From the IMG/VR virus record IMGVR_UViG_3300042881_003513, positions 1 to 63,153 of that record: DNA of 63,153 bases. The stretch is one strand, 5' to 3'. The notes below the pieces were generated by a model. It saw only the letters and a list, made by a program, of their open reading frames with translations. It was not told the origin of the DNA and did not search any database. The stretch comes from a virus (taxonomy: Duplodnaviria; Caudoviricetes). Position numbers and translations under genes: made by a program. This document shows, piece by piece, positions 15,301 through 51,170 of this stretch. Numbering within the stretch: position 1 is the first letter of the stretch; each line of letters opens with the position of its first letter.

Positions 15301-18300
15301 CGGATCGCCAAGGTGCTCTATCCTGAGTCAAAAGTATGGAACCGCCCGTTCGAGAAGCACGTCATGGCGGACAACTCACAGGATGTCATCGTGAGCAATT
15401 TCCCGTTCAGTGACGCCGATCACCCGAACGATCCGCGCTACAACAAGATCAACCCGAACCTGCACGATTATTTCTTCCTGAAATCGCTCGATAAGGTGCG
15501 ACCCGGCGGATTCGTGGTCGCCATCACTTCGATCGGCACGATGGACAAGATGGGATCGGCGGTGCGCGAGGTTCTTTCCGCCAAGGCGAATCTTGTCGCG
15601 GCATTCCGACTGCCGAACACGATGTTCAAGGGAAACGCAGCCACGGAAGTCACGACCGACCTGATCATCCTACAAAAACGGGGCCCCGGCGTTCCAATGG
15701 AGCACAAGGACTGGCTGAACCCTGTCCACATCACCACGAGGACCGGAGACGAGATCCGCATCAACCAGTATTTCCGAGACAACCCCTCAAATATGCTCGG
15801 GATCATGACGAGCGAAGGGAAGATGTATGGCAAGACGACCGCCGGAGAGGATGCGAAGAAAGTCGGAAGCAAGGCGCTTCTCTCGGATGGCCGAACCGTC
15901 GCCCAACTCATCGAGCAGATCAAAAAGACGCTCCCTGAAAACATCTTTGTTCCCGAAGACAAGCAGGCGGCGACCATTCGCAATGCCGACGAACTAGAAT
16001 TTGACCCGAACTCTGAAAAGGACGGATCGTTCGTTCTACATAAGAACGAAGTGAAGGTGTTCCGCGGCGGCGAGGTCGAGCGCCCGAGGAAGGAGATTTC
16101 ACCCACCACGAAGCGGCACACGCTGCTTTCCGGCTACATCGAGAGCGGTCACGTCGAGATTGACGACGACGGCACCGTGAAGCGCACCGGGGCGGCGTGG
16201 CCGGAATCGAAGAACCCGACCGACATCAAGCTGCGCGCCGAAATCGAGGCCGGCGACATCACGGGCGAGCAATACAAGGAGTTCCGCGAGGTCGAAGAAA
16301 AATACGAAGACCCGCTCACCGGATCGGAGCGAACCACCACCGTTGAGAGGCAGTTCAGCACGTATGCCTTCGATGGGGATTTCACCAAGGCGGACTATGA
16401 GCGGATCAAGCAGTTGATCCCGTTGAGAAAGTCGCTGAAGGCGGTTCTCCACGCCCAGGTCACGAATGCGGACGACGCCACGCTTGCGGCGATGCAAAAG
16501 GATCTGAACGTGTTTTATGATACCTACGTGAAGGAGAATGGATTCCTGCACGAAGGGAAGACGCGCGCGGCGTTTCAGGATGATCCGTTCTACCCGGCGC
16601 TGATGGCGCTCGAAGATTACGACGCCACGAACAACGAGACGACCAAGACGGACATTTTCAGCAAGCGGACGCGCCCGCGCAAGGAACCGCTCACCGGACT
16701 GACCGGGACCACTCGCGAGAACATGACAAAGATCATGGCGCAGACCGGCAAGGTGGACGTGGAGCTTCAGGCGAAGCTCTCCATGAGAGATCCCGATGAA
16801 CTCGGGGACGAGATGGTGCGCGAGGGGCTTGTGTTCCGGGATGCCGTCACCGGCAACTACGTCGAGCGCGAGGAGTATCTTTCCGGCAACATCTACGAGA
16901 AGCTGCACGCCGCAGAGGAAGCGGCGAAGTCGGACGAATCATTCCGCAAGAACATCGAGGAACTGACGAAGGCGATCCCTGAACTACGCCCCGTTGAGCG
17001 GATCGGATTCTCCTTGGGTGCTGCGTGGATCGATCCGCACACCTATTCCGAGTTCGTAAAGCACATCTACCGCGACCGGGGGCAGGCTTCGGAGTTCAAA
17101 TACAAGAACGGCAGATGGGAGGTCAATGTGCCCGTGCGCGGAAACGCCGAGGGATTTGGAACCGAAGACGTTTCCACCGAGGAACTGATCTCGCAGTCCA
17201 TGAATCTTTCGTCCCCGACGGTTCGCAAGCGATTCGATGACGGATCATCCGTCGTGCTCGAAAAGGAAACGAAGCTGGCGCGGATGGCTCAAAACCGACT
17301 GAAACAGGAGTTCAAGAACTTCATCCTCGACAACCCGGACATCCACGAGCCGCTGGTGAAGAAATTCAACGAACTGGCGAACGCAATCCGCCCGCGCACG
17401 TACGATGCGCCCTACTCCACGCTGGAGGGGATGAATCCTGAAATCTCGCTTCGGAAGCATCAGCTCGATTTCGTTTGGCGCGCGACCGTGGACGGTAAGG
17501 CGGTGGCGGCGCACGTAGTCGGCGGGGGGAAGACGTTCGCCTTCATCGGCGCGGGCATGGAGTGGAAGCGCATGGGGCTCGCGAGCAAGCCCATGTATAT
17601 CGTGCCGAACCATCTTCTGCGCAGTGGGCAGACCGCATCGGACTTCTACCGGATGTATCCGACCGCGAAGATTCTCACGGTGACGGAACGCGATTTCACG
17701 GCAAAGCGCCGACAGAGGCTCATGGCGCGGATTGCAACGGGGAATTGGGACGCCGTGCTGATCGGTCACAGCCAGATCGGATCGATCCCGGTGTCGCCGG
17801 ATCTCATGGCCGCGCACATCCAGGGCGAGCTTGCGGAACTTGAGGAAGCATTGCGCGCCACGAATGACGAGGTGGATCCAAACTCCAAGCAGGGGAAGAA
17901 GCGCATCAAGGCGCTAGAGGCGTCGCTTGCGGCAAAGCGGAGCAAGATGGAGAAGCTGCTCGATCCGCGGCGCGCGGACAAGGCGCTCTACTTCGAGGAG
18001 CTTGGCGTGGATGCCATCATTATTGACGAGGCCCACGAGTTCAAGAATCTGAACTTCTGGACGAAGCTGAACAACATCGGCGGCCTCGGGAGCGCGAACA
18101 CGGAGACGATCAAGACCGCGCAACTGAAGGTGAAGACCGACTACATCCTTCGGCAGAATAATGGCCGCAACCTACTGTTCGCCACTGGCACGCCGATCAC
18201 CAACACGATCGCCGAGGTCTATCTGCTTCAGAAGTACATCGCGCAGGATCTCCTAGACGCCGCCGGCATCAAATACTTTGACGAGTGGGCGCAGATGTTC

Positions 18301-21300
18301 GCGGACGTGCGCGAGGTTGCGGAAATCTCACCCGACGGGCAGACGTTCCAGAACAAGGCGAAATTCGTCGAGTTCAAGAACATGCAGAGCCTTATCACGA
18401 TGTTCCGACGGTATGTGGACATCCAGCGCCAGGAGCAACTGAACCTTCCGGTCCCGCCCCTCTTTGGCGGCAAGATTCAGAACATCGTGTTCCAGCCGAC
18501 TCAGGTTGTTCAGGACTACATGGCCGAGGTCGTCGAGCGCGCGGAGGCGCTGCGCGGCGGGAAAGTGGATCCGAGGGTGGACAACTGGCTCAAGCTGAAC
18601 ACGGACGCCCGAAAGATCAGCACGGACCCGCGGTTGATTGACGCGAATCTGCCGGACGATCCTGAATACAAATCCTCGCGCATCGCGAAGAACACCTACG
18701 AAATCTGGAAGGCGAACGACTACCGCAAGGGCACGCAGATCGTATTTTGTGACCTGTATTCCAACAAGGTCGAGCGCGCCAGGAAGAATGCCTTCGGGGA
18801 GCCGGAGCGTTACAAGCGCGGACCGAAACGCGGGCAGCCCATCGTCGAGAAAGTTGAACTGTTCAACGTGTTCACCGACATGAAGGACAAGCTGATCCGC
18901 ATGGGCGTGCCGGAGGACCAGATCGCCATCATCCACGATTACGAGAAGGATGAGGACAAGGAGGAACTGAAAAGCAACTTCAACGCCGGCAAGATTCGCG
19001 TGCTTCTCGGCACAACGATGAAGCTCGGCACCGGCATGAATCTTCAGCGGCGGATGGTCGCGGTTCACAGCATGGACGCCAATTATCGCCCTGACCAGAT
19101 GACGCAGCGCGAGGGCCGCGGCATCCGGCAGGGAAACCTTTTCCACGAGGCGACTATCGGCGGCAAGAAGGCGCCGGGACGGATGCCGCAGCAACCGAGC
19201 TACGAACTCAGCAAGGACGGCGCGCTCACGACCGGGCCGGGCGGAAAATTCGGCCCTTTCAACATCATCATCACGCGCAACGCGGTAGAGCGCACGCTGG
19301 ACAGCCGTATCTACCAGACGATCACGACGAAAACGAAGATCGTCGAGGATCTGCTGAACGGAGATTACAAGGGCGACACCGCTTCCGACATCAGCGACGC
19401 CGAACTGCGCGGGCAGGAAATGATTGCCGCGGCGAGCGGGAACCCGCTGGTCATGGAGCGCTTCACGCTCGAAAACGAAGTGCGCGATCTGAAGATCAGT
19501 CAGGAGGACTTTGACAGGCGACAGGCGCGAATCCGAAAGGAAATCCGCGAACTCACAAGCGGCATCGAGGAAAATGATCGCGCCATCCCGCATGTGGACG
19601 CGCTTCGGGATGCCCACCGCGCCGCCGACGCCGACATTGATCGCCGGGTCAAGGAGGGCGAGGAGGCCAAGCAAAAGGAACTTTCGGACAAGCATGTATT
19701 CGACCCGGAGACGCCTTTCGTCGTGACTCGGGACGTGAAGAAAAAGGGAAAGCAAACCGAGCTTGAGCTTGCGAAGGAAAAGATCGGAGAGGGCGAGAAG
19801 GAGGAAGTCCCGATGACGATTCTGGACATGCTCAAGGAGCCGCTGAAGAAGACGAAGAACAACCCGGACGGCGAACTCGAATTGCGCGCCTTCGGATTGA
19901 ATGGGCGACTCACGCGGAAATCCGAGCGCATTGAGGCGGCGCAAAGTCTCACGGGAGAATCACGCCTCCGCCACACGTTCAGTTGGAATTACACCGGGGC
20001 CAGCGCGTCGAAGTTTGAATTTGCGACGCAATACAACGACGAGGCGCCAGAGCTTTACAAATACTCAGGAGATAGCCCGCTGCCGAAGTTCAAGGAGCAG
20101 CGCGATTACCTCATCGAGCGCGCCGCGCATCAGTGGCTTTACGACAACGCGAGGCAGACCGATGTTGAAGTGGGCGGAACTCGCTTCACGACATTGCAGG
20201 AGGCAGTCAAGGCACTTGAGCCAAAGCTGAACGCGCTGAAGAAAGGCGAATCGCTTTCGTTCAAGGAGAACGGCGTGGATGTGAGCGTGAAGGCGGAGGA
20301 AAAGAAATCGCTCACCGAGGACGAGAAGAAGAACGCCGACATGCTCGGTGTTGTTCCGATGCTCTATCACGCCAATTTCCCGGCGCTGAAGGACGTTGGT
20401 GCGCAGGCTTACAATCCGCTCGCTTCAAGTGATGCCAGCCAACTGATTTGGCACATCGCCAATTCCCTGAAGTGGATCCCGTCGTCGGAGCAGATTCAAA
20501 AGAACGTCGCCGATCAGAAGAATCAGTTGAAGATGAAGCAGGACGCAGTTCAGACGGCGTTCCCGGAGGCGGATCAACTGGACGAGAAACAGGCGCGACT
20601 CGCGGAGGTGGTGCGTCTCACATCCGGCGATCCGCACGCGCGAACCGCGGATCCGAATGACGATGACGGGCAGATTGCTGACGACGGAAGCGGCGAAACC
20701 TTCTCCGCCGCCGCGCCGGAACGCCGCGCCACCGACGCCGTGGCAGCAGGCGCGAAGGGGCGCGAGGAGACGAAGGAAGACCGCAAGGCGGCGCAGGCCG
20801 CCACGTTCGCGACGAAGCCCCCGGGTGTCGCGTCGCAGATTTGGGATGCCGTCAAGACCGCTGGCAGCGCGACGAAAAGGTGGTGGGGCGAGATGCCAGC
20901 CTACGACACGATTGACAAGGCGATCGGCCAATGGCTCGGGGCAGGGGACAGCGCACCGCTCAAGGGCACCGACATCGTGATCCCCGGCAGACAGAAGGCC
21001 GCGCACGAATCCCGCAAGCTCGTGGAGACGATCGTGAAGCAATTCCCGAACGTGCTCACACGCCAGGCGATCAGCCGCTACATGGAGGCCGACGGCGACA
21101 AGGCCACGCTGCAAAAGTGGGCGGACAAGTCGAAGCCGGAAATGAAGGCGGTGTATGAGCGCGCGCTGAACCTGAACGCCGCGGAGAAGGCGATGGCGGA
21201 CACGGCCAAGACGTTCTTCAAGGAGAAGGGCGAGGAGGCGCAAAAGCTCGGGCTGCTCGGCAACCTGCTGGAGAACTACGTCACGCACTTTGTCGAGAAG

Positions 21301-42306: not shown

Positions 42307-42587
42307 CTCTCGCCGACGCCGAAATCAAAACCGGACTCCAAGGCCGCGAAGTGCCGAGGATCGACCGGGAGAAGTTTAGCATGGGGCCAGCGCAGGCCGA
42401 CCGCTTCAACTCCGTCGGCGATCCGCACCGATGCCAGCTTGGGAAGTGGGTGCTGGAGAAGGGCGTCGTGACGCTCAAGGATAACGACGGCACCTATTAC
42501 AAGGCGTGGTGGCAGGATCACATTTTCCACCTTGTCGGCTACGGCCCGACGTTCGCCGACGCCTGCGAAATGGCGCTCGGCAAGTAA
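42303..42587 (+). CDS. Hypothetical protein
   Basis: Coupled ORF, GC3-rich. Confidence 0.55.
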   Translation: MTLADAEIKTGLQGREVPRIDREKFSMGPAQADRFNSVGDPHRCQLGKWVLEKGVVTLKDNDGTYYKAWWQDHIFHLVGYGPTFADACEMALGK

Positions 42588-42616
42588 CTCAACAACCAAC
42601 CAACCACACAACCACA

Positions 42617-43531
42617 ATGTCAGACCAACAACTCGCAGCTACCACCAACAAACCGAGCGCCCTCGCAGTCATGGCCGCGCGCTTCTCGCTTGAACCGAGC
42701 AAGCTCCTCTCCACGCTCAAGGCGACCGTATTCAAGGGCGCGTCGGACGACGAGATGTGCGCGCTCGTCGTCGTCGCCAATGAATATGGGCTGAACCCGC
42801 TCACGAAGGAAATCTACGCCTTCCCCGCCAAGGGCGGCGGCATCGTGCCCGTCGTCTCGATTGACGGCTGGATCAACCGCATGAACTCGCATCCGCAGTT
42901 CGACGGCATCGAGTTCGCCGACAGCTTCGACGCCGCCGGAAAGCCGGTGAGCGTCACAGCGTCCATCTTCCGAAAGGATCGCACGCGCCCGACCATCGTG
43001 ACCGAATACTACGGGGAGTGCTACCGCAGCTCCGATCCGTGGAATAAGTGCCCGGCGCGGATGCTCCGGCATAAGGCGCTCATGCAGTGCGTGCGCGTGG
43101 CGTTTGGCTTTGCTGGCGTGCATGACGAGGACGACGCAGCCGCGATCACTTCATCTGTGACGATCTCCGAAATCCCGCGCGCCCAACTCACTGACACGCG
43201 CGCAGTCGAGGCAGAAGTGATCCCGCCGGACAAGCGTCCCGATCCGCGCCCGAAGGCAGAGAAGCCCAAGGCGAAGCCCGAACCCGCGCCCGAAAAGACG
43301 CCGGCACCCGCGAGTGATCCCGCTCCCGCTCCCGAAACTCCCCTCGGAAAGCTGCGCGCGATGCTCGCGGAAGGCGGATGGACCGATGACGAATGCGTGA
43401 AACTCGCGATCTCGGTGTTCCCGGCTCTCAAGCACATCAAGACCGTGGACGAGATCCCGGCCTCGAGGATCGCTGACATCATCGAGGACTGGGCCACCGC
43501 CGAGGGCGCGATGAAGACGATCAGGGGGTAG
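42617..43531 (+). CDS. bet: RecT/Red-beta family ssDNA-annealing recombinase
   Basis: YGLNPLTKEIYAFP.KGGGIVPVVSIDGW, HPQFDG, PW...P.RMLRHKA.MQC.R.AFG. Confidence 0.9.
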   Translation: MSDQQLAATTNKPSALAVMAARFSLEPSKLLSTLKATVFKGASDDEMCALVVVANEYGLNPLTKEIYAFPAKGGGIVPVVSIDGWINRMNSHPQFDGIEFADSFDAAGKPVSVTASIFRKDRTRPTIVTEYYGECYRSSDPWNKCPARMLRHKALMQCVRVAFGFAGVHDEDDAAAITSSVTISEIPRAQLTDTRAVEAEVIPPDKRPDPRPKAEKPKAKPEPAPEKTPAPASDPAPAPETPLGKLRAMLAEGGWTDDECVKLAISVFPALKHIKTVDEIPASRIADIIEDWATAEGAMKTIRG

Positions 43532-43533
43532 CC

Positions 43534-43734
43534 ATGCCCGAAGGCAAAAGGATCACCACGCTGGAGCAACTCGCCGCGGCGAGCGCGGCGAAGAAGGCGA
43601 TTGTCACACGCACTCAGTTCTTCACCAACCGGCACATGCCCGCTGCCTTTATCCTCAATATGTCCGGCAGCGTGCTCCACTGCATGATGAGGCAAGGAAT
43701 GTTCATCTACACCCCGAAAAAATCCGAACCATGA
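43534..43734 (+). CDS. Hypothetical protein
   Basis: Coupled small ORF. Confidence 0.5.
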   Translation: MPEGKRITTLEQLAAASAAKKAIVTRTQFFTNRHMPAAFILNMSGSVLHCMMRQGMFIYTPKKSEP

Positions 43735-44864
43735 TCAGATCATCCACATCCCCATCCAATTTGCACAGGCGCGTGCGCTGCCCTGGCTCGCACGCGGCTG
43801 AATTGGGCCTGCCCGAGCAGAACAGCGAATACGCCGAGGAAGGCACCCGCCTGCACGCCGCGCTGGAAGACAGCGCGGGATGCGAAGGACTCGACGAAAA
43901 GCAGATCGAACTCGTGCTTTCGACACGGGAAATCTTCGCCGAGGTCATCGAGCGCACGGTCGCTGCGATGGCGATTCCGCCGGATGCACCGTTCACAGAG
44001 GGCTACGAGCGCGAGCTTCGCGTGCGGAGCAAGCTGCGCACGGTGATGATCGGCCATTGCGACCATTGGCGCTACTACCCCGATCAGAAGGTGCTGGTGA
44101 TCACGGACGCCAAGTTCGGATTCATCGAAGTCACGCCGGCCCCGCTTAACCTTCAACTGCGCGCATACGCGGTGATGGGCTCACAGGAGTGGGATGTTGA
44201 ACATGCCGTCGTCGCCATCGCGCAGCCTCGCGCCGGCATGATCGACGACGCCGAGAAACTGACGATCGCGCAGTATGACCGCGCCGACCTCGCCCTAGCT
44301 CACGCGCAGATTCTTGAATGGGAGTGCGAATGGTTGAAGCCGTTCGCGCCGCGCGTGCCTTCCGAGGATGCGTGCAGGTATTGCAAGGCCAAGCTGCTTT
44401 GCAATCAGTACGCCGAGCGGATGGGATCGCTGAAGGGTGATGTCGTCGCCGGGATTGCTGATCTGCCGGAGGATCGGTTTGCCCTGCTTTTCGAGGCGCT
44501 GAAAATCGCGGCGAAAGCCGACACGCAAAAAGCAATCTTGGCCGAGGCCCGCGTGCGCGTCGCCGAGGGGCGGCTACCCGGCTACCGACTCAAGCCGAAC
44601 GCAGCGCGACGGTCGATCACCGACAACGCGAAGGCGTCGGCGATCCTTCGGGACGGGCTTGCGTTCACGCAGGATGAGATCGCGGAAGCGAGTTCGCTTT
44701 CACTCGGCGAGGCCGTGACCGTGCTTCGCCGCAAAGTGAAGTTCAAAAACGAGGCCGAGGCGACCAAGTGCCTGCGCGACACGCTGGCGTCGGTGATCGA
44801 ACTCAAAACGCCGGAACCGAGCGTGGTTCCGGTTTCATCGCATGATGCTGCGAGGACTGTGTAG
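43731..44864 (+). CDS. PD-(D/E)XK exonuclease, DUF2800/Cas4-like
   Basis: SPS...CPGS, AEEGTRLH, GHCD, DAKFG, QLRAYA, CRYCKAK..C. Confidence 0.85.
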   Translation: MIRSSTSPSNLHRRVRCPGSHAAELGLPEQNSEYAEEGTRLHAALEDSAGCEGLDEKQIELVLSTREIFAEVIERTVAAMAIPPDAPFTEGYERELRVRSKLRTVMIGHCDHWRYYPDQKVLVITDAKFGFIEVTPAPLNLQLRAYAVMGSQEWDVEHAVVAIAQPRAGMIDDAEKLTIAQYDRADLALAHAQILEWECEWLKPFAPRVPSEDACRYCKAKLLCNQYAERMGSLKGDVVAGIADLPEDRFALLFEALKIAAKADTQKAILAEARVRVAEGRLPGYRLKPNAARRSITDNAKASAILRDGLAFTQDEIAEASSLSLGEAVTVLRRKVKFKNEAEATKCLRDTLASVIELKTPEPSVVPVSSHDAARTV

Positions 44865-44982
44865 CGATGAAGCTCAAGGGATGCACCGGGAACGCGCTCC
44901 GAAACGGGACTGACTTCATGACTACCAACACGCCTCCTCAACTGAACGCCAGGGTGCCGTCCGTATCATCCGCTGGTTCGGA
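44859..44982 (-). other. attC-1 (degenerate, distal)
   Basis: AGC-N6-GCTCAAG-GGATG-CACC ... GGTG-C-CGTCC ... N5-GTTCGG; L-box pairing decayed. Confidence 0.5.
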
Positions 44983-45934
44983 GCCGGATTTAGTCGGCGC
45001 GAGCACACGATGCGATGGGAGCCGTGGCGGTGCGCGTGGTGTGCGGTCGGATTCAGATTTGGCACCGGACAAGAGGCCCAATGGAGTCAGCGTGGCGCTT
45101 GCTTCCGCGCAAGGTAGTCCGGTGCCATTCACTTTGCTGGCTGGCGACTGCCGCGAGACTTTGCGCGGGCTGCCGGCCGCGTGCGCGCAATGCTGCGTGA
45201 CCTCGCCGCCATACTGGAATCTCCGCGACTACGGGCACGCCGACCAAATCGGGCAGGAGGCGACGCCAGAGGAATACGTTGCCAGTCTCGTGAAGGTGTT
45301 TCGCGAAGTCCGGCGGGTGCTCGCGCCCGATGGGACACTGTGGCTGAACCTCGGAGATACCTACTGGAAGAAGCAACTCGTCGGCATCCCGTGGCGCGTG
45401 GCGCTTGCTTTGCAGGCGGATTCGTGGTGGCTGCGCTCGGAAATCATCTGGCATAAAGAAAACGCGATGCCGGAGAGCACGACGGACCGGCCAAGTCGTA
45501 GCCACGAAACAATCTTTCTGTTCGGTGCCTCCGAGAGCTACCGTTACGACGCAGAAGCAATCAAAGAGCCGATCCAGTCAGACCGCGCGCCGAGCCGAAA
45601 GGCGAAGGCCACTGGCGCGGGGCACTCCGAACTTCGAGGAGGCACACCCTACGACGGGAGCGGGACGCATCGCAACCGCCGCACGGTCTGGACGGTGCCA
45701 ACGGCACCGTATCCGAATGCTCACTTCGCCGTTTATCCGGCGACTCTCATCGCGCCTTGTATCCTCGCCGGGAGTCAGCCCGGCGAGGTGGTGCTCGATC
45801 CTTTCGGCGGGAGTGGAACGACGGGAGCCACCGCGCTGACTCTCGGGAGAAAAACGATCCTGTGCGAACTCAACCCGGAATACGCGAAGCTCATCGAGCA
45901 ACGCACGACAACCACCTTTGGATTGCCTCTATGA
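44918..45934 (+). CDS. DNA methyltransferase, N4-C/N6-A family (beta class)
   Basis: GDC, VTSPPYW, HFAVYP, VLDPFGGSGTT; alternative ATG at 44867. Confidence 0.9.
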   Translation: MTTNTPPQLNARVPSVSSAGSEPDLVGASTRCDGSRGGARGVRSDSDLAPDKRPNGVSVALASAQGSPVPFTLLAGDCRETLRGLPAACAQCCVTSPPYWNLRDYGHADQIGQEATPEEYVASLVKVFREVRRVLAPDGTLWLNLGDTYWKKQLVGIPWRVALALQADSWWLRSEIIWHKENAMPESTTDRPSRSHETIFLFGASESYRYDAEAIKEPIQSDRAPSRKAKATGAGHSELRGGTPYDGSGTHRNRRTVWTVPTAPYPNAHFAVYPATLIAPCILAGSQPGEVVLDPFGGSGTTGATALTLGRKTILCELNPEYAKLIEQRTTTTFGLPL

Positions 45935-46152
45935 ACCGTCCAAATTACGACAACGTAGCTGACGCAATACGCGGCGCAATGGCTAGGCTGTGCCGGGCTG
46001 TATCACGTCGAATGATGCCGGATGAACCAACGCCGGAAGATAGGATCGAGATGCTGGAGGCATACGCGGCGGCGTGCGCCTTGCTGGAGTCATGCCAGCC
46101 GAACGACAAGCTCTGCCGCGAGCAGGGCGGAAAGGACTCCGATGGCAGGTGA
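45931..46152 (+). CDS. Hypothetical cassette protein
   Basis: ATGA-coupled; ends inside attC-2. Confidence 0.55.
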   Translation: MNRPNYDNVADAIRGAMARLCRAVSRRMMPDEPTPEDRIEMLEAYAAACALLESCQPNDKLCREQGGKDSDGR

Positions 46153-46191
46153 ACCGCGGCGACATGGAGACGGCGCAGCGCATGGTTCGCT
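46098..46191 (-). other. attC-2
   Basis: GCCGAAC-N5-GCT-CTGCCG ... CGGCG-C-AGC-N5-GTTCGCT. Confidence 0.7.
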
Positions 46192-46375
46192 TCCTCGCCT
46201 ACCCGCAAGACCTTGGGTTGCGAGTCAGCAATACTCCATGCGCTTCATCCTCTCACGAGACAACGAAATACTGTGGCGGTGTGACTTCGTGCCGATGCCG
46301 GTACTCAAGGCGATGGTGGACGCCGCCAATGCAGCAATGGAAGCGAACGAAAAGCTCACCGACGCGCCGGGATAG
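46142..46375 (+). CDS. Hypothetical cassette protein
   Basis: Starts in attC-2, ends in attC-3 (ANEKLTDAPG). Confidence 0.5.
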   Translation: MAGEPRRHGDGAAHGSLPRLPARPWVASQQYSMRFILSRDNEILWRCDFVPMPVLKAMVDAANAAMEANEKLTDAPG

Positions 46376-46461
46376 CGCGTCAAAAACACACTGACTCTTA
46401 TGAAAAAGATACCCATCAAAAACACGAAGAAGGCGCGTTCGAGTGCAGCGCATGGTTCGGC
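46342..46461 (-). other. attC-3
   Basis: AGCGAAC-N5-GCT-CAC-CGA-CGCGCC ... GGCGCG-T-TCG-A-GTG-C-AGC-N5-GTTCGGC. Confidence 0.9.
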
Positions 46462-46663
46462 GCACTCGTTGGCTGCAACTATTGCCGCCGCCCTGTTCAC
46501 GAGCGGGGACGGCAAGAGGGCGTCCAGACTACATTTCATCCTCGAAAGCGGGGACGTGTGGGGCGGCTGGAGTGAAGCGGCAGTCGCAGCACAGATCGAG
46601 AAGCTGCTCAGTGCGCCGAACGATGGAACTTACGGACAGACCCCTCACAACCCGACCACATGA
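46400..46663 (+). CDS. Hypothetical cassette protein
   Basis: Starts in the attC-3 loop, ends in attC-4. Confidence 0.6.
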   Translation: MKKIPIKNTKKARSSAAHGSAHSLAATIAAALFTSGDGKRASRLHFILESGDVWGGWSEAAVAAQIEKLLSAPNDGTYGQTPHNPTT

Positions 46664-46800
46664 GCACGCCAAGAATCTGCCCAAGCTGCAATAACTACCT
46701 GTTTGACGACGAAGCGCCGAAATGCGTCTGCGCAAATAACTGCGCGCCCGAACCGGAGCGTTCGAGTGAGGGGGCTGTTACGTGCAGTGACTTGATCTGC
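46615..46800 (-). other. attC-4 (GAT/ATC core)
   Basis: GCCGAAC-N6-ACT-TACG-GACAG-A-CCCCTCAC ... GTGAGGGG-G-CTGTT-A-CGTG-C-AGT-N5-GATCTGC. Confidence 0.8.
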
Positions 46801-46977
46801 GAATGGGAAGCCGCGCTCTCGACGGCAGAGAAGATGATGAAGGAGACCGAACGCAAGGAAGGCTCCACATACTACTACTGGCAGGGGCGATACGATGAGG
46901 CCGAAAGCGCGTTGGATCGGGCGCGGAGACATTCGCAGATCGGTGAGCACAGCAACACGCCGACACCACACCAATGA
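46660..46977 (+). CDS. Hypothetical cassette protein with Cys cluster
   Basis: CPSC...CVC encoded in the attC-4 loop; ATGA-coupled at both ends. Confidence 0.6.
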   Translation: MSTPRICPSCNNYLFDDEAPKCVCANNCAPEPERSSEGAVTCSDLICEWEAALSTAEKMMKETERKEGSTYYYWQGRYDEAESALDRARRHSQIGEHSNTPTPHQ

Positions 46978-47050
46978 GCACTCCACCTGACCTACTCACT
47001 CCGCACGGCAGCACGACAACAGGCGTGTTTGCTGCTGCGGCTGGTTATCT
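46935..47050 (-). other. attC-5
   Basis: GCAGATC-N5-GCA-CAGCA-ACACGCC ... GGCGTGT-T-TGCTG-C-TGC-N5-GTTATCT. Confidence 0.88.
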
Positions 47051-47951
47051 TTCCGCCGTTGAAGTTCACGACCCTGCCACGAAGCAGAGTGCATCTTGGA
47101 GCGGGGGGACTTCTAAAACACAAGCCGAAGGCCCAATCCACATCATCTCGCTCGGCGCGGGCGTGCAAAGCTCTACGATGGCGCTGATGGCGGCGCACGG
47201 CGAGATCACGCCGATGCCCACGGCGGCGGTGTTCGCGGACACACACGCGGAACCGGAAAGCGTGTATCGCTGGCTCGAATGGCTGGAAACGAAACTGCCG
47301 TTTCCGGTGCATCGCGTGAGCAAAGGCGACCTCGCCCGCGTGTCGCTGACTGTGCGCGACAAGAAAGACGGCACCGGAAAATGGGTGAAGTCCCTAATCC
47401 CGGCGTTCATCCAGAATCCAGACGGAAGCCGTGGAATCATGGGGCGTGCCTGCACGTTCGATTACAAGGTGATGCAGTTGGAAGCTGCGGCGAAACGAAT
47501 CGGCGAGATCAAGCGGAACCAAAAGACGGTCGGCGTGATCCAGTGGATCGGAATCAGCCTCGACGAAGCGCATCGCATGAAGCCTGCACGCAAGGCGTGG
47601 GTGGAGCATCGCTGGCCGCTGATAGACGCGGGCATGAAGCGGCACGATTGCTTGCGGTGGATGGAGCGGATGGGCTACCCGAAGCCTCCGCGCTCGGCCT
47701 GCATCTACTGCCCGTTTCACAGCGACGCTGAATGGCGAAGATTGAAGGACGAGGAGCCGAAAGAGTTTGCTCGCGCGGTGCAATTCGAGCGCGACCTGCA
47801 ACACGCGAAATCTCAGACGGACAACCAGCGTGGAAAGCCGTTCCTGCACAACTCACTGAAACCGCTCGACCAGGTGGATCTGAGCACGGACATCGAACGC
47901 GGACAGGGCGAGATGTTCGGAAACGACTGCACGGGGCTTTGCGGCGTATGA
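46974..47951 (+). CDS. PP-loop / PAPS-reductase-like phage protein
   Basis: ISLGAGVQSS, FADT..EP, WIGISLDE, RWPL, PPRSACIYCPF, terminal CTGLC. Confidence 0.8.
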   Translation: MSTPPDLLTPHGSTTTGVFAAAAGYLSAVEVHDPATKQSASWSGGTSKTQAEGPIHIISLGAGVQSSTMALMAAHGEITPMPTAAVFADTHAEPESVYRWLEWLETKLPFPVHRVSKGDLARVSLTVRDKKDGTGKWVKSLIPAFIQNPDGSRGIMGRACTFDYKVMQLEAAAKRIGEIKRNQKTVGVIQWIGISLDEAHRMKPARKAWVEHRWPLIDAGMKRHDCLRWMERMGYPKPPRSACIYCPFHSDAEWRRLKDEEPKEFARAVQFERDLQHAKSQTDNQRGKPFLHNSLKPLDQVDLSTDIERGQGEMFGNDCTGLCGV

Positions 47952-48109
47952 CTCGTGCAACCGCCAGCGTCCGCTTTCGAGGAATGCGTGTGGGGCTTCC
48001 GAAGGGTAGCGCCGACCCTCGGCACTCTGAGTCGGGGAACAATCAAGCTCAGAGACCGCGAGCCGGGAGCGGGGCATCTGAAACAATACCGGCATCCAAA
48101 ATACCATGA
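47948..48109 (+). CDS. Short coupled ORF running into attC-6
   Basis: ATGA overlaps at both ends; may be a cassette remnant. Confidence 0.35.
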   Translation: MTRATASVRFRGMRVGLPKGSADPRHSESGNNQAQRPRAGSGASETIPASKIP

Positions 48110-48162
48110 AACACCGAATCCAAACCGCCAAGCTCGCGGTTCTCTGCAGCGCCTTGTTAGCC
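48034..48162 (-). other. attC-6
   Basis: GGGGAAC-N6-GCT-CAGAG-ACCGCGAGC ... GCTCGCGGT-T-CTCTG-C-AGC-N5-GTTAGCC. Confidence 0.92.
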
Positions 48163-48378
48163 CTTGGCGCTTGCTCGAAAGACCCAATCAGCAAGGCCGG
48201 AACGAACAATCCTGAAATCACCGTTGAACTCCTATTCGAGAAGGACGGCGTGAAGGTCTATCGCTTCACGGACTCGGGTAGAAGCATCTACTACACCGAT
48301 GCGCGTGGGCGCACGGACTGGTCAGTGAACCAAGGCAAGAACGGCGTCCGTCACTTCGGCGTGGAGACAGCGCAATGA
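48106..48378 (+). CDS. Lipoprotein, DUF4884-like
   Basis: LGAC lipobox; VELLFEKDGVKVYRFTD.GRSIYYT. Confidence 0.7.
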   Translation: MKHRIQTAKLAVLCSALLALGACSKDPISKAGTNNPEITVELLFEKDGVKVYRFTDSGRSIYYTDARGRTDWSVNQGKNGVRHFGVETAQ

Positions 48379-48382
48379 AAAG

Positions 48383-48472
48383 GGCTAACGAATAAGCTCA
48401 TGGACACGCCTCACTTCGCTCTCGAATTACAGGAACCGCTCAAGGCGTGTTCCATGCAGCGCATGGGTCTGC
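48383..48472 (-). other. attC-7 (GGT/ACC core)
   Basis: GGCTAAC-N6-GCT-CATGG-ACACGCCT ... AGGCGTGT-T-CCATG-C-AGC-N5-GGTCTGC. Confidence 0.9.
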
Positions 48473-49239
48473 GAACGCCCGGACAAGAGCCGCGCGTGGC
48501 ACGCACGAAAGATGCGGTGCGGAGCGGAGTGGGCGGAGTTCTGCGCTCCGTGTATGAGGACCAGCACGACATCCTCGAAGCCATCCGGCAACTGCACTGC
48601 CCCGAAGGCTACGAAGCAGATTTGACGTTTGGAAATGGTAGCTTCTGGAAGCGCCTGCCGCGCCCGAAATACTGCTTCGACGTGACGCCGCTGCATGAGG
48701 GCGTGGTGCAAGCGGACTCGCGGATGCTGCCGCTCGCGCCAGCGAGCCTCGGCAACGCCGTGTTCGATCCGCCGTTCCTGACCTACGTGCAAGCCGGACG
48801 CGCCCACAAAGAGGGCAAGGTGGCGATGACTGCGCGCTTCGGTGGATACTACCGCTACGACGAACTGGAAGACCACTACCGGGACACAATCAGCGAGTGC
48901 TACCGAGTCCTGCGCCCGAAGGGCAAACTGGTCTTCAAGTGCCAAGACATCATCCACAATCACCGGATGCACTGCACGCACGTCAACGTCATCCAGATGG
49001 CCGAAATCGAAGGCTTCCGGCTCGCGGATTTGTTCGTGCTTCCGGCCCGCCATCGGATGCCGTCGCCGCAACGCGGCACCCAACGGCACGCACGAATCTT
49101 CCACAGTTACTTTTTGGTGTTCGAGCGCGATGCCTCTGCGGGCGGCGGGGGTGCGGAGCTGGGGGCAAATAAGAGCAAGCGTGGAACGAAGAGCGGCGCG
49201 CGTTCGCAGACCGAAAAGCTCACCGACGCGCCGAGATAG
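48400..49239 (+). CDS. Putative amino DNA methyltransferase
   Basis: DLTFGNGSFW (SAM-binding), VFDPPF (catalytic), ECYRVLRPKG.LVFKCQD. Confidence 0.75.
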   Translation: MDTPHFALELQEPLKACSMQRMGLRTPGQEPRVARTKDAVRSGVGGVLRSVYEDQHDILEAIRQLHCPEGYEADLTFGNGSFWKRLPRPKYCFDVTPLHEGVVQADSRMLPLAPASLGNAVFDPPFLTYVQAGRAHKEGKVAMTARFGGYYRYDELEDHYRDTISECYRVLRPKGKLVFKCQDIIHNHRMHCTHVNVIQMAEIEGFRLADLFVLPARHRMPSPQRGTQRHARIFHSYFLVFERDASAGGGGAELGANKSKRGTKSGARSQTEKLTDAPR

Positions 49240-49324
49240 CGCCTCGCAAACACACTGACTTTATGAAAAAGAAAACCGTCAAAAACACGAAGAAGGCGCG
49301 TTCGAGTGCAGCGCATGGTTCGGC
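49206..49324 (-). other. attC-8 (near copy of attC-3)
   Basis: Stems identical to attC-3; differences only in the loop. Confidence 0.9.
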
Positions 49325-49511
49325 GATTCCCGCGTCGAAGCTACTACGAGCCGAAGCAACCCGCCTCGACGTGCTGAAACACGCGATGCCAGATGCAGCC
49401 GAGGACATGATAGCGGCTCAGGTGTGGGCCTACAACATGGCGGCGGCATACCTCGACGCTCTAGGCGCGCCGGAGAAACTGGTGCGCTACGTGCCTTCGC
49501 CGAACAGATGA
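49263..49511 (+). CDS. Hypothetical cassette protein
   Basis: Starts in the attC-8 loop; stop lies in attI. Confidence 0.6.
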   Translation: MKKKTVKNTKKARSSAAHGSAIPASKLLRAEATRLDVLKHAMPDAAEDMIAAQVWAYNMAAAYLDALGAPEKLVRYVPSPNR

Positions 49512-49536
49512 TTCCGCAGAAAAAAATCCGCATATC
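49499..49536 (-). other. Putative attI site
   Basis: Minus strand GCGGAAT-catct-GTTCGGC (imperfect inverse core, 5-bp spacer, core) with repeated TGCGGA; no attC hairpin. Confidence 0.65.
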
Positions 49537-49617
49537 ATGAAAAAGACAGAACTGATCGAACAGCTACAAATCGCGATTCGGCGCAAGCACTACAACTACG
49601 CGACCGTGAACCAATGA
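49537..49617 (+). pseudogene. intI: Truncated integron integrase N-terminus
   Basis: MKKTELIEQLQIAIRRKHYNYATVNQ* resembles the IntI start LLDQ.R..IR..HYS..T; canonical position next to attI. Confidence 0.7.
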
Positions 49618-51170
49618 TCGCCCGCCCTTACCAATCCGCCTCCGTCGAGAGCGTAGAGCAGGCATTTCGCGAGTTTTCCAAAGTGCTCGGCGTGGCTGCG
49701 ACCGGGGCCGGAAAGACGATCGTGTTCTCGATGTTCACGCAGCGGCACCTTGCGGAATCGGACACGAACCGCGTGCTCATCATCGCGCACCGCGAGGAAC
49801 TGCTGACTCAGGCGGCGCAGAAACTCATGCGCGCGACGGGTATCAACTCCGAACTGGAGCGCGCGGATGCGCGCGCAAGCCTCGACGCCCGCGTGGTGGT
49901 CGCGAGCATTCAGACACTCTGCCGACGCTTCGAGCGGTTCCCGGCGAACCATTTCACGCGGATCATCGTGGATGAATGCCATCACGCACTGGCGGACAGC
50001 TACCAGCCGGCGCTCCAGTATTTCCTCGGCGGCAGCGCGAAAGTCTTGGGCGTGACTGCAACGCCGGGAACGAAGGGCAAGAAGGCGCTCGGGAATTTCT
50101 TCGAGACGATCGCTTTCGAGGTCGGGCTGATTGAGTTGATCCGCGCGGGCTACCTATCCCCGATCAGCGTCAAGAGCTTCCCGCTCATCGGCGGGGGCGC
50201 GGAACCGATCTCGTTTGCGGTCAAGAATGGCGACTACGATCAGGAGCAGGTGGATCACGCCCTCGATCCCTACCTTGAGAGCATCGTTGCGCGGCTCGGC
50301 GCGGAGATTGGCGACCGTAAGACGCTCGTTTTTCTGCCGCTCATCAAGACGGTGGAGCGGTTCGTGGCGCTGTGCAATGCGGCGGGACTGAAGGCCGCGG
50401 GCGTGAGCGGCGTGAGCGAGGAACGGGCAGACATCCTTTCCGCGCACGGCACGGACTTTCAGATCCTCGCGAACTCGATGTTGCTGACCGAGGGCTATGA
50501 CGACCCGGCGATCTCGGCGATGATGATCCTGCGGCCGACGCGCTCAGAGATTCTTTTCTCGCAAATGGTGGGGCGCGGCACGCGAGTCTATTGCCCGTGG
50601 GGATGCACCGAACGATGCACGCACGGATCGCGGAAGCGCAACCTGCTGTTGTTGGATCCGCTTTGGCTCCACGAGGACATGAACCTGGTGCGACCGGCGA
50701 ACCTTGTGACCGGACGAGACGAGGACCGCAGGAGCATGAGCGAGCGCGTGGCGGCGAAGCAGGAGGAACTCGATCTTCTGAACATGCTCGCCGACGCGGA
50801 GCATGACCGGGAAAAATCACTCGCCGAGAAGCTGGCGCGCATGGAGAAGCGAAAGACGAAGACGATCAGCGTGGAGGAGTGGGCGGTGCTCGCGCACGCG
50901 CCGAACATTGCGGATTTTGAACCGACGATGCGGTGGCACGAATCGCCGATCTCGCCAAAGCAGGCGGAAATGCTGGTGCGCTTCGGCTTCGACGCCGGGA
51001 GCGTCCGGGGCCGCGGGCACGCATCGGCGCTGCTAGACGTGTTCTTTTCCCGCCGGAAGCAGGGACTCGCGACCGTGGCGCAGGTGCGGCTGATGACGAG
51101 GATGAAGCACCCGAACCCTGAGACGGAGACTTTCGCCGGCGCGAAGGCGTGGCTCGACCAACGATTTTAA
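49614..51170 (+). CDS. Superfamily 2 DExH helicase
   Basis: RPYQ, ATGAGKT, DECHH, TAT, TEGYDDP, QMVGRGTR. Confidence 0.92.
   Translation: MIARPYQSASVESVEQAFREFSKVLGVAATGAGKTIVFSMFTQRHLAESDTNRVLIIAHREELLTQAAQKLMRATGINSELERADARASLDARVVVASIQTLCRRFERFPANHFTRIIVDECHHALADSYQPALQYFLGGSAKVLGVTATPGTKGKKALGNFFETIAFEVGLIELIRAGYLSPISVKSFPLIGGGAEPISFAVKNGDYDQEQVDHALDPYLESIVARLGAEIGDRKTLVFLPLIKTVERFVALCNAAGLKAAGVSGVSEERADILSAHGTDFQILANSMLLTEGYDDPAISAMMILRPTRSEILFSQMVGRGTRVYCPWGCTERCTHGSRKRNLLLLDPLWLHEDMNLVRPANLVTGRDEDRRSMSERVAAKQEELDLLNMLADAEHDREKSLAEKLARMEKRKTKTISVEEWAVLAHAPNIADFEPTMRWHESPISPKQAEMLVRFGFDAGSVRGRGHASALLDVFFSRRKQGLATVAQVRLMTRMKHPNPETETFAGAKAWLDQRF

What the first reader, a model, noticed from the sequence alone, without database searches (positions are those of the whole stretch)
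46098..49511. Inverted cassette ORFs cross the crossover point in one conserved frame and borrow their stop from the next att site
All cassette genes lie on the plus strand, opposite to the usual cassette orientation, so they are co-transcribed with the phage operon. Seven ORFs run across the recombination point with the core triplet as an in-frame codon: P-N-DKL, A-N-EKL, P-N-DGT, Q-I-GEH, G-N-NQA, Q-T-EKL, P-N-R*. Stops lie inside the neighbouring site and often overlap the next start (ATGA at 46660, 46974, 48106). The attC therefore doubles as a portable translational-coupling joint, so new cassette orders could stay expressed and C-terminal tails would be swapped.
Basis: partly seen in the sequence, partly recalled or inferred. 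Interest (0 to 1): 0.88.

Follow-up and report, generated by a model that had tools for sequence, protein, structure and literature searches.

The report
Phage integron cassettes read through attC
A lake phage carries a real integron-type array of swappable DNA-modification genes in which every gene runs the "wrong" way, reads across the recombination point in one fixed frame, and ends inside the next recombination site, so any gene order stays correctly translated.

Summary
Window 46.1-49.5 kb holds seven attC-like sites on the + strand. Five have the fine geometry of integron attC bottom strands: AAC/GTT R box, 5-6 nt spacers, and bulged bases at positions 16/20/24 or 16/23. The aadA1 attC of plasmid R100, used as a control, gives the same geometry, but on the strand opposite its gene.

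Each gene body is flanked by its own 8-13 nt inverted repeat. Near-identical phages (98-99.7% identical flanks) and lake metagenome contigs carry reshuffled, missing or extra cassettes, with breakpoints at AA|C. Each site travels with the gene downstream of it.

In 22 of 22 array sites with a long upstream ORF, that ORF crosses the crossover with AAC (or ACC/ATC) as a codon. A frame-0 stop lies inside the next site in 22 of 23 site types, usually in the hairpin loop and often as ATGA with the next start.

This phage has no integrase. Other phages with such arrays encode true integron integrases, two of them directly beside the array. One cassette is 99.6% identical between unrelated backbones.

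Phage attC arrays are already published. The inverted, in-frame, translationally joined design is a new variant. Expression itself is untested.

The parts
44865..44979 (+). Decayed attC-like junction in front of the N6_N4 DNA methylase gene (44867-45934). It is probably the fixed left end of the array.
   Evidence: 85% identical over 115 nt to an intact attC-like site of L176. Its R' is not AAC and its 3' arm no longer pairs. Pfam N6_N4_Mtase.
45931..46152 (+). ORF 'unit 0' (73 aa, no family). It crosses the first crossover as P-N-D and stops at 46150.
46098..46191 (+). attC-like site 1 (degenerate hairpin): R' GCCGAAC, R'' GTTCGCT.
   Evidence: the R box and a 3-bp L stem are kept, the rest is irregular.
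46143..46375 (+). Cassette A ORF (77 aa). The body is flanked by a 10-nt inverted repeat (46185-46194 / 46339-46348).
46342..46461 (+). attC-like site 2 (belongs to cassette B): 15-bp L stem, bulges at 16/20/24, stop TAG at 46373 and start ATG at 46400 in the loop.
46400..46663 (+). Cassette B ORF (87 aa), 12-nt flanking inverted repeat (46455-46466 / 46610-46621).
46615..46800 (+). attC-like site 3 (belongs to cassette C): long, weak hairpin with ATGA at 46660.
46660..46977 (+). Cassette C ORF (105 aa, Cys-rich), 12-nt flanking inverted repeat (46794-46805 / 46930-46941). The core triplet is ATC/GAT.
46935..47050 (+). attC-like site 4 (belongs to the PAPS cassette): 15-bp L stem, bulges at 16/23, ATGA at 46974 in the loop.
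46974..47951 (+). PAPS-reductase-like gene (phrog_424). The cassette is fused: its 3' end (47964-48040) is the tail and R' of an MT-A70 cassette, so its own ends do not match.
   Evidence: The matching R' for its 5' end is seen in L091.
48034..48162 (+). attC-like site 5 (belongs to the lipoprotein cassette): 17-bp L stem, ATGA at 48106.
48106..48378 (+). Lipoprotein-like ORF (DUF4884), 10-nt flanking repeat (48156-48165 / 48380-48389). It stops 11 nt before the crossover.
48383..48473 (+). attC-like site 6 (belongs to cassette D): 16-bp L stem, frame-0 stop TAA at +3, start at 48400.
48400..49239 (+). Cassette D, a DNA methyltransferase (phrog_24333), 13-nt flanking repeat (48466-48478 / 49200-49212). 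The core triplet is ACC/GGT. The whole 823-nt unit 48390-49212 is cleanly absent in contigs of two other lake runs.
49206..49324 (+). attC-like site 7 (belongs to cassette E), about 90% identical to site 2.
49263..49511 (+). Cassette E ORF (82 aa), 9-nt flanking repeat (49318-49326 / 49497-49505). The crossing is P-N-R-stop.
49497..49505 (+). Terminal half-site (..GAAC|) at the right end of the array, on the side where relatives carry attI and intI. No hairpin follows it here.
   Evidence: A contig of run X20 joins another cassette to the flank at 49502.

Best explanation
The region is an integron-type cassette array without its own integrase (a CALIN), sitting in the early/replication operon of a lake phage. 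Each mobile unit is, from left to right on the + strand: an attC-like hairpin site, the gene body, and the left half of the next R box. The + strand corresponds to the recombining bottom strand of classical attC sites. Recombination cuts between A and C of the 5'-AAC-3' at the left edge of each site. An integron integrase does this. It is not encoded here but is encoded by other phages that carry the same kind of array, and possibly by the host. The genes lie on the bottom-strand side, so they are inverted relative to classical cassettes. They are therefore read in the direction of the phage operon, towards the place where attI and intI sit in the complete versions. The hairpin is protein-coding. 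Its 5' arm encodes the last residues of the upstream protein. Its loop holds that protein's stop and the next gene's start, often overlapping as ATGA. Its 3' arm and the R'' box encode the leader of the next protein. All cassettes cross the AA|C point in the same frame, and every site offers a stop in that frame. Any cassette order therefore yields terminated proteins whose ribosomes unzip the hairpin and end at or near the next start codon. Shown: the site geometry, the unit boundaries, the reshuffling, the frame rule, the stop placement, and integron integrases in related arrays. Inferred: that translational coupling is the selected function, that the array is one transcript, and which integrase serves this phage. 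The cargo (four DNA methyltransferases, a Mom-like protein, a PAPS-reductase-like protein and a GNAT) points to a swappable kit for DNA modification and anti-restriction.
For: (1) Geometry. Nine of 12 sites of the window and L005 have an AAC/GTT-type R box, 5-6 nt unpaired spacers, 3 bp, one bulged base on the 3' arm, then a stem with a second or third 3'-arm bulge. The pair strings correspond to bulges at 16/20/24 or 16/23. These are the positions given for VCR2/attCoxa2 and attCaadA7 in PMC5027507 (passages read).

(2) Control. The same descriptor finds the aadA1 attC of R100 once, with the same string as phage sites 4-6, on the strand opposite aadA1 and with intI1 to its right.

(3) Specificity. 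There are 5 hits in the array, 0 elsewhere on the + strand and 0 on the - strand at 15 or more bp. Shuffles average 0.17.

(4) Cassette signature. Sixteen of 20 distinct units have their own 7-13 nt perfect inverted repeat at the two aligned boundaries. Complementarity across the site in the array is only 1-6 nt.

(5) Mobility. Relatives with 98.4-99.7% identical flanks carry the orders A-B-C-PAPS-lipo-D-E (window), A-MTA70-Zn-Mom-GNAT-PAPS-lipo-E (L005) and A-MTA70-Zn-Mom-lipo-D'-E (L089). Every site stays with its downstream body while the upstream partner changes. Contigs of runs X10 and X13 skip exactly the 823-nt D unit, with a 4-nt ambiguity.

(6) The Mom-like cassette is 99.55% identical over 671 nt between L005 and the otherwise unrelated L176. 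It ends exactly at AAC and is followed there by 53 nt and an integrase gene.

(7) Integrases. Three of 5 other array-bearing phage contigs encode proteins matching TIGR02249 (integron integrase) at 255-272 bits, E 1e-76 to 1e-81. The best PDB match is VchIntIA 2a3v at E 7e-45, aligned ungapped through the stretch I recall as the IntI-specific segment. In two of them (G005, G007) the gene lies directly right of the array on the + strand, as intI1 does in R100.

(8) Frame. Twenty-two of 22 array sites with a long upstream ORF are crossed in frame 0. A frame-0 stop lies inside the site in 22 of 23 types, against 13 and 11 of 23 in the other frames. The stop is in the loop in 18 of 23, and an ATGA overlap occurs in 9 of 23.

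(9) In L176 the frame-0 stop after attI overlaps the integrase start as ATGA.
Against: This phage and its close relatives have no tyrosine recombinase: PF00589 six-frame search found 0 hits in G000, G001, G002 and G004. The acting enzyme is therefore inferred. The R box departs from the classical consensus: only 2 of 27 R' heptamers listed fit RYYYAAC, most read ..GAAC, and 3 have ATC or ACC. The first bulged base is mostly C, not the G of classical sites (against 30 and 47). Three of 12 sites fold poorly. The PAPS cassette and 3 other long units lack matching ends. The lipoprotein and PAPS genes do not cross the crossover. IntegronFinder's attC model could not be run. No circular cassette, transcript or protein was observed. 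In G006 the integrase lies about 11 kb from the single detected site. A global count of GTT...AAC inverted repeats in the window is not above chance (11 against 9.6). The signal lies only in position and context.
Confidence: 0.85

Rival explanations
1. The array is a true attC cassette array, but the fixed frame and borrowed stops are inherited scaffolding rather than an adaptation for translational coupling. On this view, new cassettes arise when a gene body is swapped into an existing cassette, keeping the old leader and tail. Frame and stop placement are then copied along by descent.
For: Homologues of methylase D in 69 viral loci match only about residues 47-243 of 279, and those of the Mom-like protein match about 18-212 of 220. 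The leaders and tails are therefore not part of the gene families. The MT-A70 tail recurs behind the PAPS reductase and, in part, behind a Dcm-like gene in L091. The GNAT cassette carries pieces 75-80% identical to D's leader and tail. Sites 2 and 7 are about 90% identical but serve different bodies.
Against: The flanking repeats are unique to each cassette while the frame is kept in 22 of 22. Frame-0 stops are enriched over the other frames (22 against 13 and 11 of 23). The same frame rule holds at the attI-intI joint of an unrelated backbone. The two readings do not exclude each other.
Confidence: 0.3
2. The cassettes are exchanged by homologous or annealing-type recombination at short conserved junction sequences, using the phage's RecT and PD-(D/E)XK nuclease (42506-44864), in the way of modular phage mosaicism. 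No site-specific integrase takes part.
For: RecT and a DUF2800 nuclease lie just upstream. The junctions share short motifs on either side of the hairpin. No integrase is found in this phage. The PAPS cassette's mismatched ends look like a homologous exchange within shared tails.
Against: Mean column identity of the junctions is only 40%, yet every breakpoint falls within the 4 nt at AA|C. Homologous exchange does not create a cassette-specific inverted repeat at the two ends of each unit. It also does not explain the strand-asymmetric bulge geometry shared with R100's attC. Integron integrases sit beside such arrays in other phages.
Confidence: 0.07
3. The hairpins are primarily RNA elements (attenuators, processing sites or translational operators) of the phage operon, and their likeness to attC is convergent.
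For: The junction transcripts would fold strongly (-28 to -55 kcal/mol), and the starts lie in or near the loops.
Against: No Rfam family matches (2 hits with E about 0.5, far below gathering scores). RNA function does not explain the unit-wise reshuffling, the flanking repeats or the adjacent integron integrases. An RNA-level role alongside recombination is part of the best explanation, not a rival to it.
Confidence: 0.03

Closest known systems
Clusters of attC sites lacking an integrase (CALINs) and integrons in bacteriophage genomes (Qi et al. 2023, PMC9892861; abstract and section 3.4 read)
   Same: attC arrays occur in phages, mostly without an integrase. The cassettes include DNA methyltransferases (that paper counts five, including N6_N4_Mtase). 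Phage attCs were shown to be recombined by IntI1.
   Different: That paper describes cassettes oriented as in bacterial arrays, or divergent sites. The parts I read do not mention genes uniformly on the bottom-strand side, coding hairpin arms, a fixed crossing frame or stop/start joints. Its supplementary tables could not be opened. The present array also comes with population evidence of ongoing reshuffling and with phage-encoded integron integrases beside sister arrays.
ORF-11 / ORF-18 of attI1 in class 1 integrons (as reviewed in PMC8876359, passages read)
   Same: A short ORF spans the recombination crossover, takes its in-phase stop from the incoming cassette, and couples translation to the next gene.
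   Different: That case involves one tiny leader peptide at attI, read from Pc into the array. Here every real cassette gene crosses an attC crossover, the direction is towards attI and intI, and in L176 the integrase start itself overlaps the borrowed stop.
Classical integron attC sites (Nivina et al. 2016, PMC5027507, passages read; R100 aadA1 attC as control)
   Same: Imperfect hairpin, R and L boxes, unpaired central spacer, bulged bases on the arm opposite AAC at 16/20/24 or 16/23, a variable loop, and a crossover between A and C.
   Different: The R box reads mostly ..GAAC/GTTC.. instead of RYYYAAC/GTTRRRY. The first bulge is mostly C. The loops are long (about 30-110 nt) and hold a stop and a start codon. 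The genes lie on the other strand.
Synthetic attC sites embedded in coding sequence (Nivina et al. 2020, PMC7439510; only the search listing and the start of the abstract were seen)
   Same: attC structure can coexist with an arbitrary, even protein-coding, sequence.
   Different: That is an engineered design. Here it appears as the natural rule of a whole cassette pool.
PeSL promoter/stem-loop cassettes of T4-type phages, and integrons with an inverted integrase gene such as that of Treponema (both recalled from memory, not checked in any call)
   Same: PeSLs are repeated structured joints that flank shuffled accessory genes in phages. Inverted-integrase integrons have the integrase and the cassette genes on one strand.
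   Different: PeSLs carry promoters and are thought to act by homologous exchange; no promoter-like site was found here. In inverted-integrase integrons it is the integrase that is flipped and it lies upstream. Here the platform is canonical and the genes inside the cassettes are flipped, so intI lies downstream.

Membership tests
integron attC recombination site | Imperfect hairpin with an R box, unpaired central spacer, L box and variable terminal loop | tested here: met
   Met by 9 of 12 sites of the window and L005. Five window sites have 15 or more L-stem pairs.
integron attC recombination site | [quoted passage not shown] | tested here: met
   The pair strings match the positions given in PMC5027507 and the R100 control. 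The identity of the first bulged base differs (mostly C).
integron attC recombination site | Core consensus RYYYAAC / GTTRRRY | tested here: inconclusive
   The AAC triplet is present in 24 of 27 listed R' heptamers. The full RYYYAAC pattern fits only 2 of 27; most read ..GAAC.
integron attC recombination site | Crossover between A and C of AAC, so that each cassette starts with the complement of its own inverse core | tested here: met
   Breakpoints in four arrangements and in contigs resolve to the 4 nt at AA|C. Cassette-specific flanking repeats occur in 16 of 20 units.
integron attC recombination site | Detected by the curated attC covariance model (IntegronFinder) or by HattCI | not testable with these tools
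   The model is not in Rfam (one search found nothing). MAFFT alignments were too poor to build a model of my own.
integron attC recombination site | Recombined by an integron integrase | not testable with these tools
   Indirect evidence only: IntI genes lie beside sister arrays, and one shared cassette sits next to attI.
complete integron | intI gene and attI adjacent to the array | tested here: not met
   No PF00589 hit in the window's contig, which CheckV rates 100% complete, nor in G001, G002 and G004. The feature is met in other phages: G005 and G007 have a TIGR02249-type gene directly right of the array.
CALIN (cluster of attC sites lacking an integrase) | Two or more attC sites in tandem on one strand with no integrase nearby | tested here: met
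   Seven sites in 3.3 kb, all on the + strand, and no integrase.
classical cassette organisation | The gene lies on the top strand with its attC downstream of it | tested here: not met
   Genes with Pfam or PHROG support lie on the bottom-strand-like strand, with their site upstream. R100 shows the classical case.
integron integrase (IntI), for the proteins of G005, G006 and G007 | Full-length match to TIGR02249 and the extra IntI-specific segment (that this segment defines IntI is recalled) | tested here: met
   Scores are 255.5, 260 and 272.2 bits against a cut-off of 265, so two fall just under it, and all far exceed XerC/D. The ungapped alignment to VchIntIA runs through the stretch I take to be that segment.

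The most novel reading that the evidence does not exclude
A lineage of phage integrons has turned the integron inside out. The platform (attC bottom strand, attI, intI) is canonical, but every cassette gene is flipped so that the array is read as part of a phage operon running towards intI. The attC hairpin arms have become coding sequence. A universal crossing frame with a stop/start joint in the hairpin loop makes any cassette order, and even the integrase gene behind attI, translationally linked. Integrase-bearing phages would act as helpers for integrase-less ones such as this, forming a shared, fast-shuffling pool of DNA-modification genes among unrelated lake phages.
Probability: 0.55. 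Interest if true: 0.88.

Novelty: new variant of a known kind. Interest (0 to 1): 0.8.

Why it matters
Integrons are known as bacterial devices in which promoterless cassettes are read from one promoter, and expression fades with distance and with attC hairpins in the mRNA. Here the same recombination chemistry seems to have been refitted by phages. The genes are inverted, the recombination site is translated, and one frame rule guarantees that shuffling never breaks translation. Three things follow. First, this is a natural example of recombination sites embedded in coding sequence, which has been an engineering goal. Second, it offers a direct way to test how attC structure and translation interact. 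Third, it is evidence that phages trade anti-restriction DNA-modification genes as integron cassettes, with some phages carrying the integrase and others only the array. It also warns that standard integron annotation, which expects genes upstream of their attC on the other strand, will mis-assign such cassettes.

Tried and rejected
Searches and scans that gave nothing or were unusable:
- A megablast/blastn search of the phage GenBank collection with 45900-49650 found nothing.
- An unconstrained scan for 9-mer inverted repeats and a chain-of-repeats scan over all loci were swamped by chance matches and were dropped.
- The global count of GTT...AAC repeats is not significant.
- Two MAFFT alignments of the 12 sites aligned the arms poorly because the loops differ in length. 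I therefore built no covariance model and wrote a descriptor scan instead.
- The first descriptor version demanded a complementary R box and found only 1 site. In an array the R box is a hybrid of two cassettes, so I relaxed that rule.
- At 12 or more pairs the descriptor has a background of about 4-5 hits per strand of a shuffled window, so only hits with 15 or more pairs were counted as specific. Counts at 13 or more used the extra AAC/GTT filter. In one search the strands of the 26 non-canonical hits were not printed.

Host and integrase leads:
- Relative G003, classed as a provirus, has only a weak, non-IntI recombinase (18.5 bits). I found no tRNA and no NCBIfam-recognisable host gene in its last 19 kb. 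The host remains unknown.
- I did not use the genome-contig scan, because no query promised a specific answer.

Other tools:
- No RNA holder was listed among the sequencing runs, so expression could not be examined.
- Rfam gave no credible match.
- The promoter/terminator scan found no promoter-like site, and no + strand terminator-like site between 45.9 and 49.6 kb. This is weak support at best.

Literature on the inverted, in-frame design: searches found only Qi et al. 2023 and general integron papers. PMC13108822 (passages) concerns inversion of a whole array relative to replication, not gene orientation.

Full report
WHAT THE WINDOW IS. The window is a whole 63,153-bp viral contig: one contig, rated 100% complete by CheckV, with no terminal repeat found. 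It has a portal, capsid, terminase-like and tail genes, a 4,632-codon ORF, and a replication/recombination block on the + strand: RecT 42506-43531, a DUF2800 PD-(D/E)XK nuclease 43731-44864, and helicases. The finding lies between an N6_N4 DNA methylase (44867-45934) and a helicase (49614-51170). Runs that hold the stretch are lake-water metagenomes.

THE OBSERVATION. The ORF at the fifth crossing (48036) is, in this window, only the remnant tail of an MT-A70 cassette that lies behind the PAPS-reductase stop. In relative L089 a real gene crosses the same site.

ANATOMY.
- A 15-nt motif just left of each gene body occurs exactly three times, only inside the array.
- Each gene body is bracketed by a perfect inverted repeat that differs from cassette to cassette but starts at the same aligned position. 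The lengths are A 10, B 12, C 12, lipoprotein 10, D 13 and E 9 nt in the window, and MT-A70 12, Zn-ribbon protein 9, Mom-like 10, GNAT 13 and D' 8 nt in relatives.
- Over 20 distinct units from five arrays, 16 have their own repeat of 7 or more nt. The complementarity across the intervening site is only 1-6 nt.
- The four failures are the fused PAPS cassette and three long stretches that may hold undetected sites.
- Between the right repeat of one unit and the left repeat of the next lies a 72-172 nt junction. It folds as an imperfect hairpin of -28 to -55 kcal/mol.

LIKENESS TO attC, WITH A CONTROL. Nivina et al. 2016 (PMC5027507, passages read) state four things about the recombining bottom strand. 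It carries 5'-RYYYAAC-3' in R' and is cut between A and C. R'' reads GTTRRRY. Extrahelical bases lie near L'' on the arm opposite AAC. They sit at G16/T20/T24, G16/A20/T24 or G16/T23 in three model sites.

I wrote a descriptor for this: an R' ending in C, a 5-6 nt spacer, 3 bp, a one-base bulge on the 3' arm, then a further stem that allows only 3'-arm bulges.
- Nine of the 12 sites of the window and L005 fit it.
- At 15 or more pairs the window gives five hits, all in the array and all on the + strand, and none on the - strand. Sixty shuffles gave a mean of 0.17.
- The pair strings are 3-bulge-3-bulge-3-bulge-6 or 3-bulge-6-bulge-6. With a 7-nt R'' and a 5-nt spacer, these put the bulges at 16/20/24 or 16/23.
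- As a positive control I fetched plasmid R100. The descriptor finds the aadA1 attC once, with the string 3-bulge-6-bulge-6, on the strand opposite aadA1, and with intI1 to its right on that same strand.
- So the phage + strand corresponds to the bottom strand, and the phage genes, unlike aadA1, lie on it.
- Departures from the classical site: the R box is mostly ..GAAC/GTTC.. (RYYYAAC fits 2 of 27 listed heptamers, and three have ATC or ACC), and the first bulged base is mostly C.

MOBILITY AND WHERE THE CROSSOVER IS. Relatives found through the PAPS reductase, the helicase and a DNA pattern are 98.4-99.7% identical to the window up to 46357 and from 49209/49212 on, but differ in between. The cassette orders are:
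- Window: A-B-C-PAPS-lipo-D-E.
- L005/L004: A-MTA70-Zn-Mom-GNAT-PAPS-lipo-E.
- L089/L090: A-MTA70-Zn-Mom-lipo-D'-E.
- L003/L173: a further cassette in front of Mom-GNAT-PAPS.

In every comparison a junction stays with the body to its right while its left neighbour changes:
- The E junction follows D, lipo or D'.
- The lipo junction follows the MT-A70 remnant or Mom.
- The Mom junction follows three different partners.
- Cassette A is followed by two different junctions.

The unit is therefore site + body + left half of the next R box, and the crossover lies at the left edge of the site, at the + strand AAC.

Contigs from other lake runs add independent cases. X10 and X13 skip exactly 823 nt from 48388 to 49212, with a 4-nt ambiguity; this is the D unit 48390-49212. 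X20 replaces everything from 47046 to 49502 by 1,279 other letters. Several loose ends show further partners.

INTEGRASES. The window and its close relatives have no tyrosine recombinase. Searching with two cassette proteins brought in more distant phage contigs. The descriptor then found 29 canonical AAC...GTT sites in them, all on the strand of the query gene.

Four of five such contigs have a tyrosine recombinase. Three of these match TIGR02249, integron integrase, over their full length: 255.5, 260 and 272.2 bits against a cut-off of 265, with XerC/D at 138 bits or less. The G005 protein's best solved relative is VchIntIA (2a3v, E 7e-45), aligned ungapped through what I recall as the IntI-specific segment.

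In G005 (L176) and G007 (L179, a complete genome with terminal repeats) the gene lies immediately right of the array on the + strand. This is the same platform layout as in R100, except that the cassette genes point the other way. In G006 the integrase is about 11 kb from the single detected site.

The Mom-like cassette of L005 recurs in L176 at 99.55% identity over 671 nt. The two backbones otherwise share only a 115-nt attC-like piece. The identity ends exactly at AAC and is followed by 53 nt and the integrase start. This is the expected picture of a cassette inserted at attI, and it shows exchange between unrelated phages.

THE FRAME RULE. Over 30 distinct descriptor hits, 24 have 40 or more open codons upstream. 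Of these, 22 have AAC (or ACC/ATC) as a codon. The two exceptions are an isolated hit inside the giant gene and one in L226, neither in an array.

Because the cut falls between the second and third base of that codon, and the third base is always C, the codon survives any exchange.

Among 23 distinct junction types:
- A frame-0 stop lies inside the junction in 22, against 13 and 11 in frames 1 and 2.
- The stop is in the hairpin loop in 18.
- The next start is in the loop in at least 14. The automatic start calls are imperfect for a few; for example, B's true ATG at 46400 was missed.
- Stop and start overlap as ATGA in 9.
- Seventeen of 23 starts have no Shine-Dalgarno-like motif.

The 5' arm thus encodes the tail of the upstream protein, and the 3' arm plus R'' encodes the leader of the next. 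Tails change with the neighbour. In L176 the frame-0 stop behind attI overlaps the integrase start.

FUNCTION OF THE CARGO. The cassettes encode N6_N4 and other DNA methyltransferases (D, D', and the fixed one at 44867), an MT-A70 methylase, a Mom-like modification protein, a PAPS-reductase-like protein, a GNAT, a small lipoprotein and several unknowns. This fits a DNA-modification or anti-restriction kit. It also matches the remark of Qi et al. 2023 that phage cassettes carry methyltransferases.

HOW IT MOST LIKELY WORKS. Shown: attC-type sites, their strand, the unit boundaries, ongoing exchange, the frame rule, and integron integrases next to sister arrays.

Inferred:
- An IntI supplied in trans, by a co-infecting phage of the integrase-bearing kind or by the host, excises and inserts the units through folded + strand hairpins.
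- The array is transcribed with the surrounding + strand operon. No promoter-like site, and no + strand terminator-like site between 45.9 and 49.6 kb, was found, which is weak evidence.
- Ribosomes of the upstream ORF melt the 5' arm and terminate in the loop at or near the next start. This overcomes the block that attC hairpins otherwise pose. The review PMC8876359 (passages) describes that block and the ORF-11 precedent.
- The array may have been seeded by insertion outside att sites, a route reported in bioRxiv 10.1101/2022.09.11.507474 (abstract seen in the listing only).

COMPARISON AND NOVELTY. Phage CALINs and phage integrons are published (Qi et al. 2023). So are ORFs that borrow a stop across attI1 (ORF-11). 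Four things are new here:
- Uniform inversion of the cassette genes on a canonical platform.
- Translation of both hairpin arms.
- A universal crossing frame with loop-borne stop/start joints.
- Population evidence for shuffling on one phage backbone, and for sharing of a cassette between backbones.

My literature searches found no description of this design, but supplements were closed. I rate it a new variant of a known kind, of high interest to people who work on integrons and phage genomes.

VERDICT. Confidence is about 0.85 that this is an IntI-type cassette array with a selected or inherited frame rule, and about 0.55 for the full inside-out phage integron reading, including functional translational coupling and helper integrases.

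Noticed in passing
L012:790-1347 (relative of window 49614-51170): In a relative with 87-89% identical helicase, about 560 nt are inserted just after the helicase start. The insert encodes a lysine-rich ORF with a Cys/His-rich, HNH-like end, and looks like a homing-endonuclease insertion.
   Followed up: no
window 47964-48040; L091:960-1047: A shared tail module (..FEECV.G..KG..) ends three different cassettes: MT-A70, PAPS reductase, and a Dcm-like methylase in L091. L091's copy ends in the exact complement of the PAPS cassette's left repeat. This suggests that homologous exchange within tails creates cassettes with mismatched ends.
   Followed up: partly
window 44865-44979: The start of the N6_N4 methylase gene is 85% identical to an intact attC-like site of the unrelated phage contig L176. 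This 'backbone' methylase is therefore probably an old, now fixed cassette.
   Followed up: partly
window 9358-23256: A single 4,632-codon ORF on the + strand. I did not examine it.
   Followed up: no
window 49937-49946 / 50062-50071: A 10-nt GTTC.../...GAAC inverted repeat lies 115 nt apart inside the helicase gene. It has the same core as the cassette ends but no hairpin site beside it, and is probably chance.
   Followed up: no
window 46155-46186 (read laying): In all four lake runs, several contigs match only this 30-nt 3' arm/R'' piece and then diverge on both sides. The motif is therefore shared by many other sequences in these lakes, possibly a much larger cassette pool.
   Followed up: no
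L179:5951-6991 and L176:4675-5700: Phage-encoded integron integrases lie downstream of the cassette genes and are co-directional with them. In L176 the integrase start overlaps the stop of whichever cassette ORF sits at attI, so integrase translation may be coupled to the first cassette.
   Followed up: partly
L171 (G003:56000-75363): A 75-kb relative classed as a provirus has a 363-aa tyrosine recombinase that scores below Pfam's cut-off (18.5 bits) and matches no NCBIfam model.
   Followed up: partly
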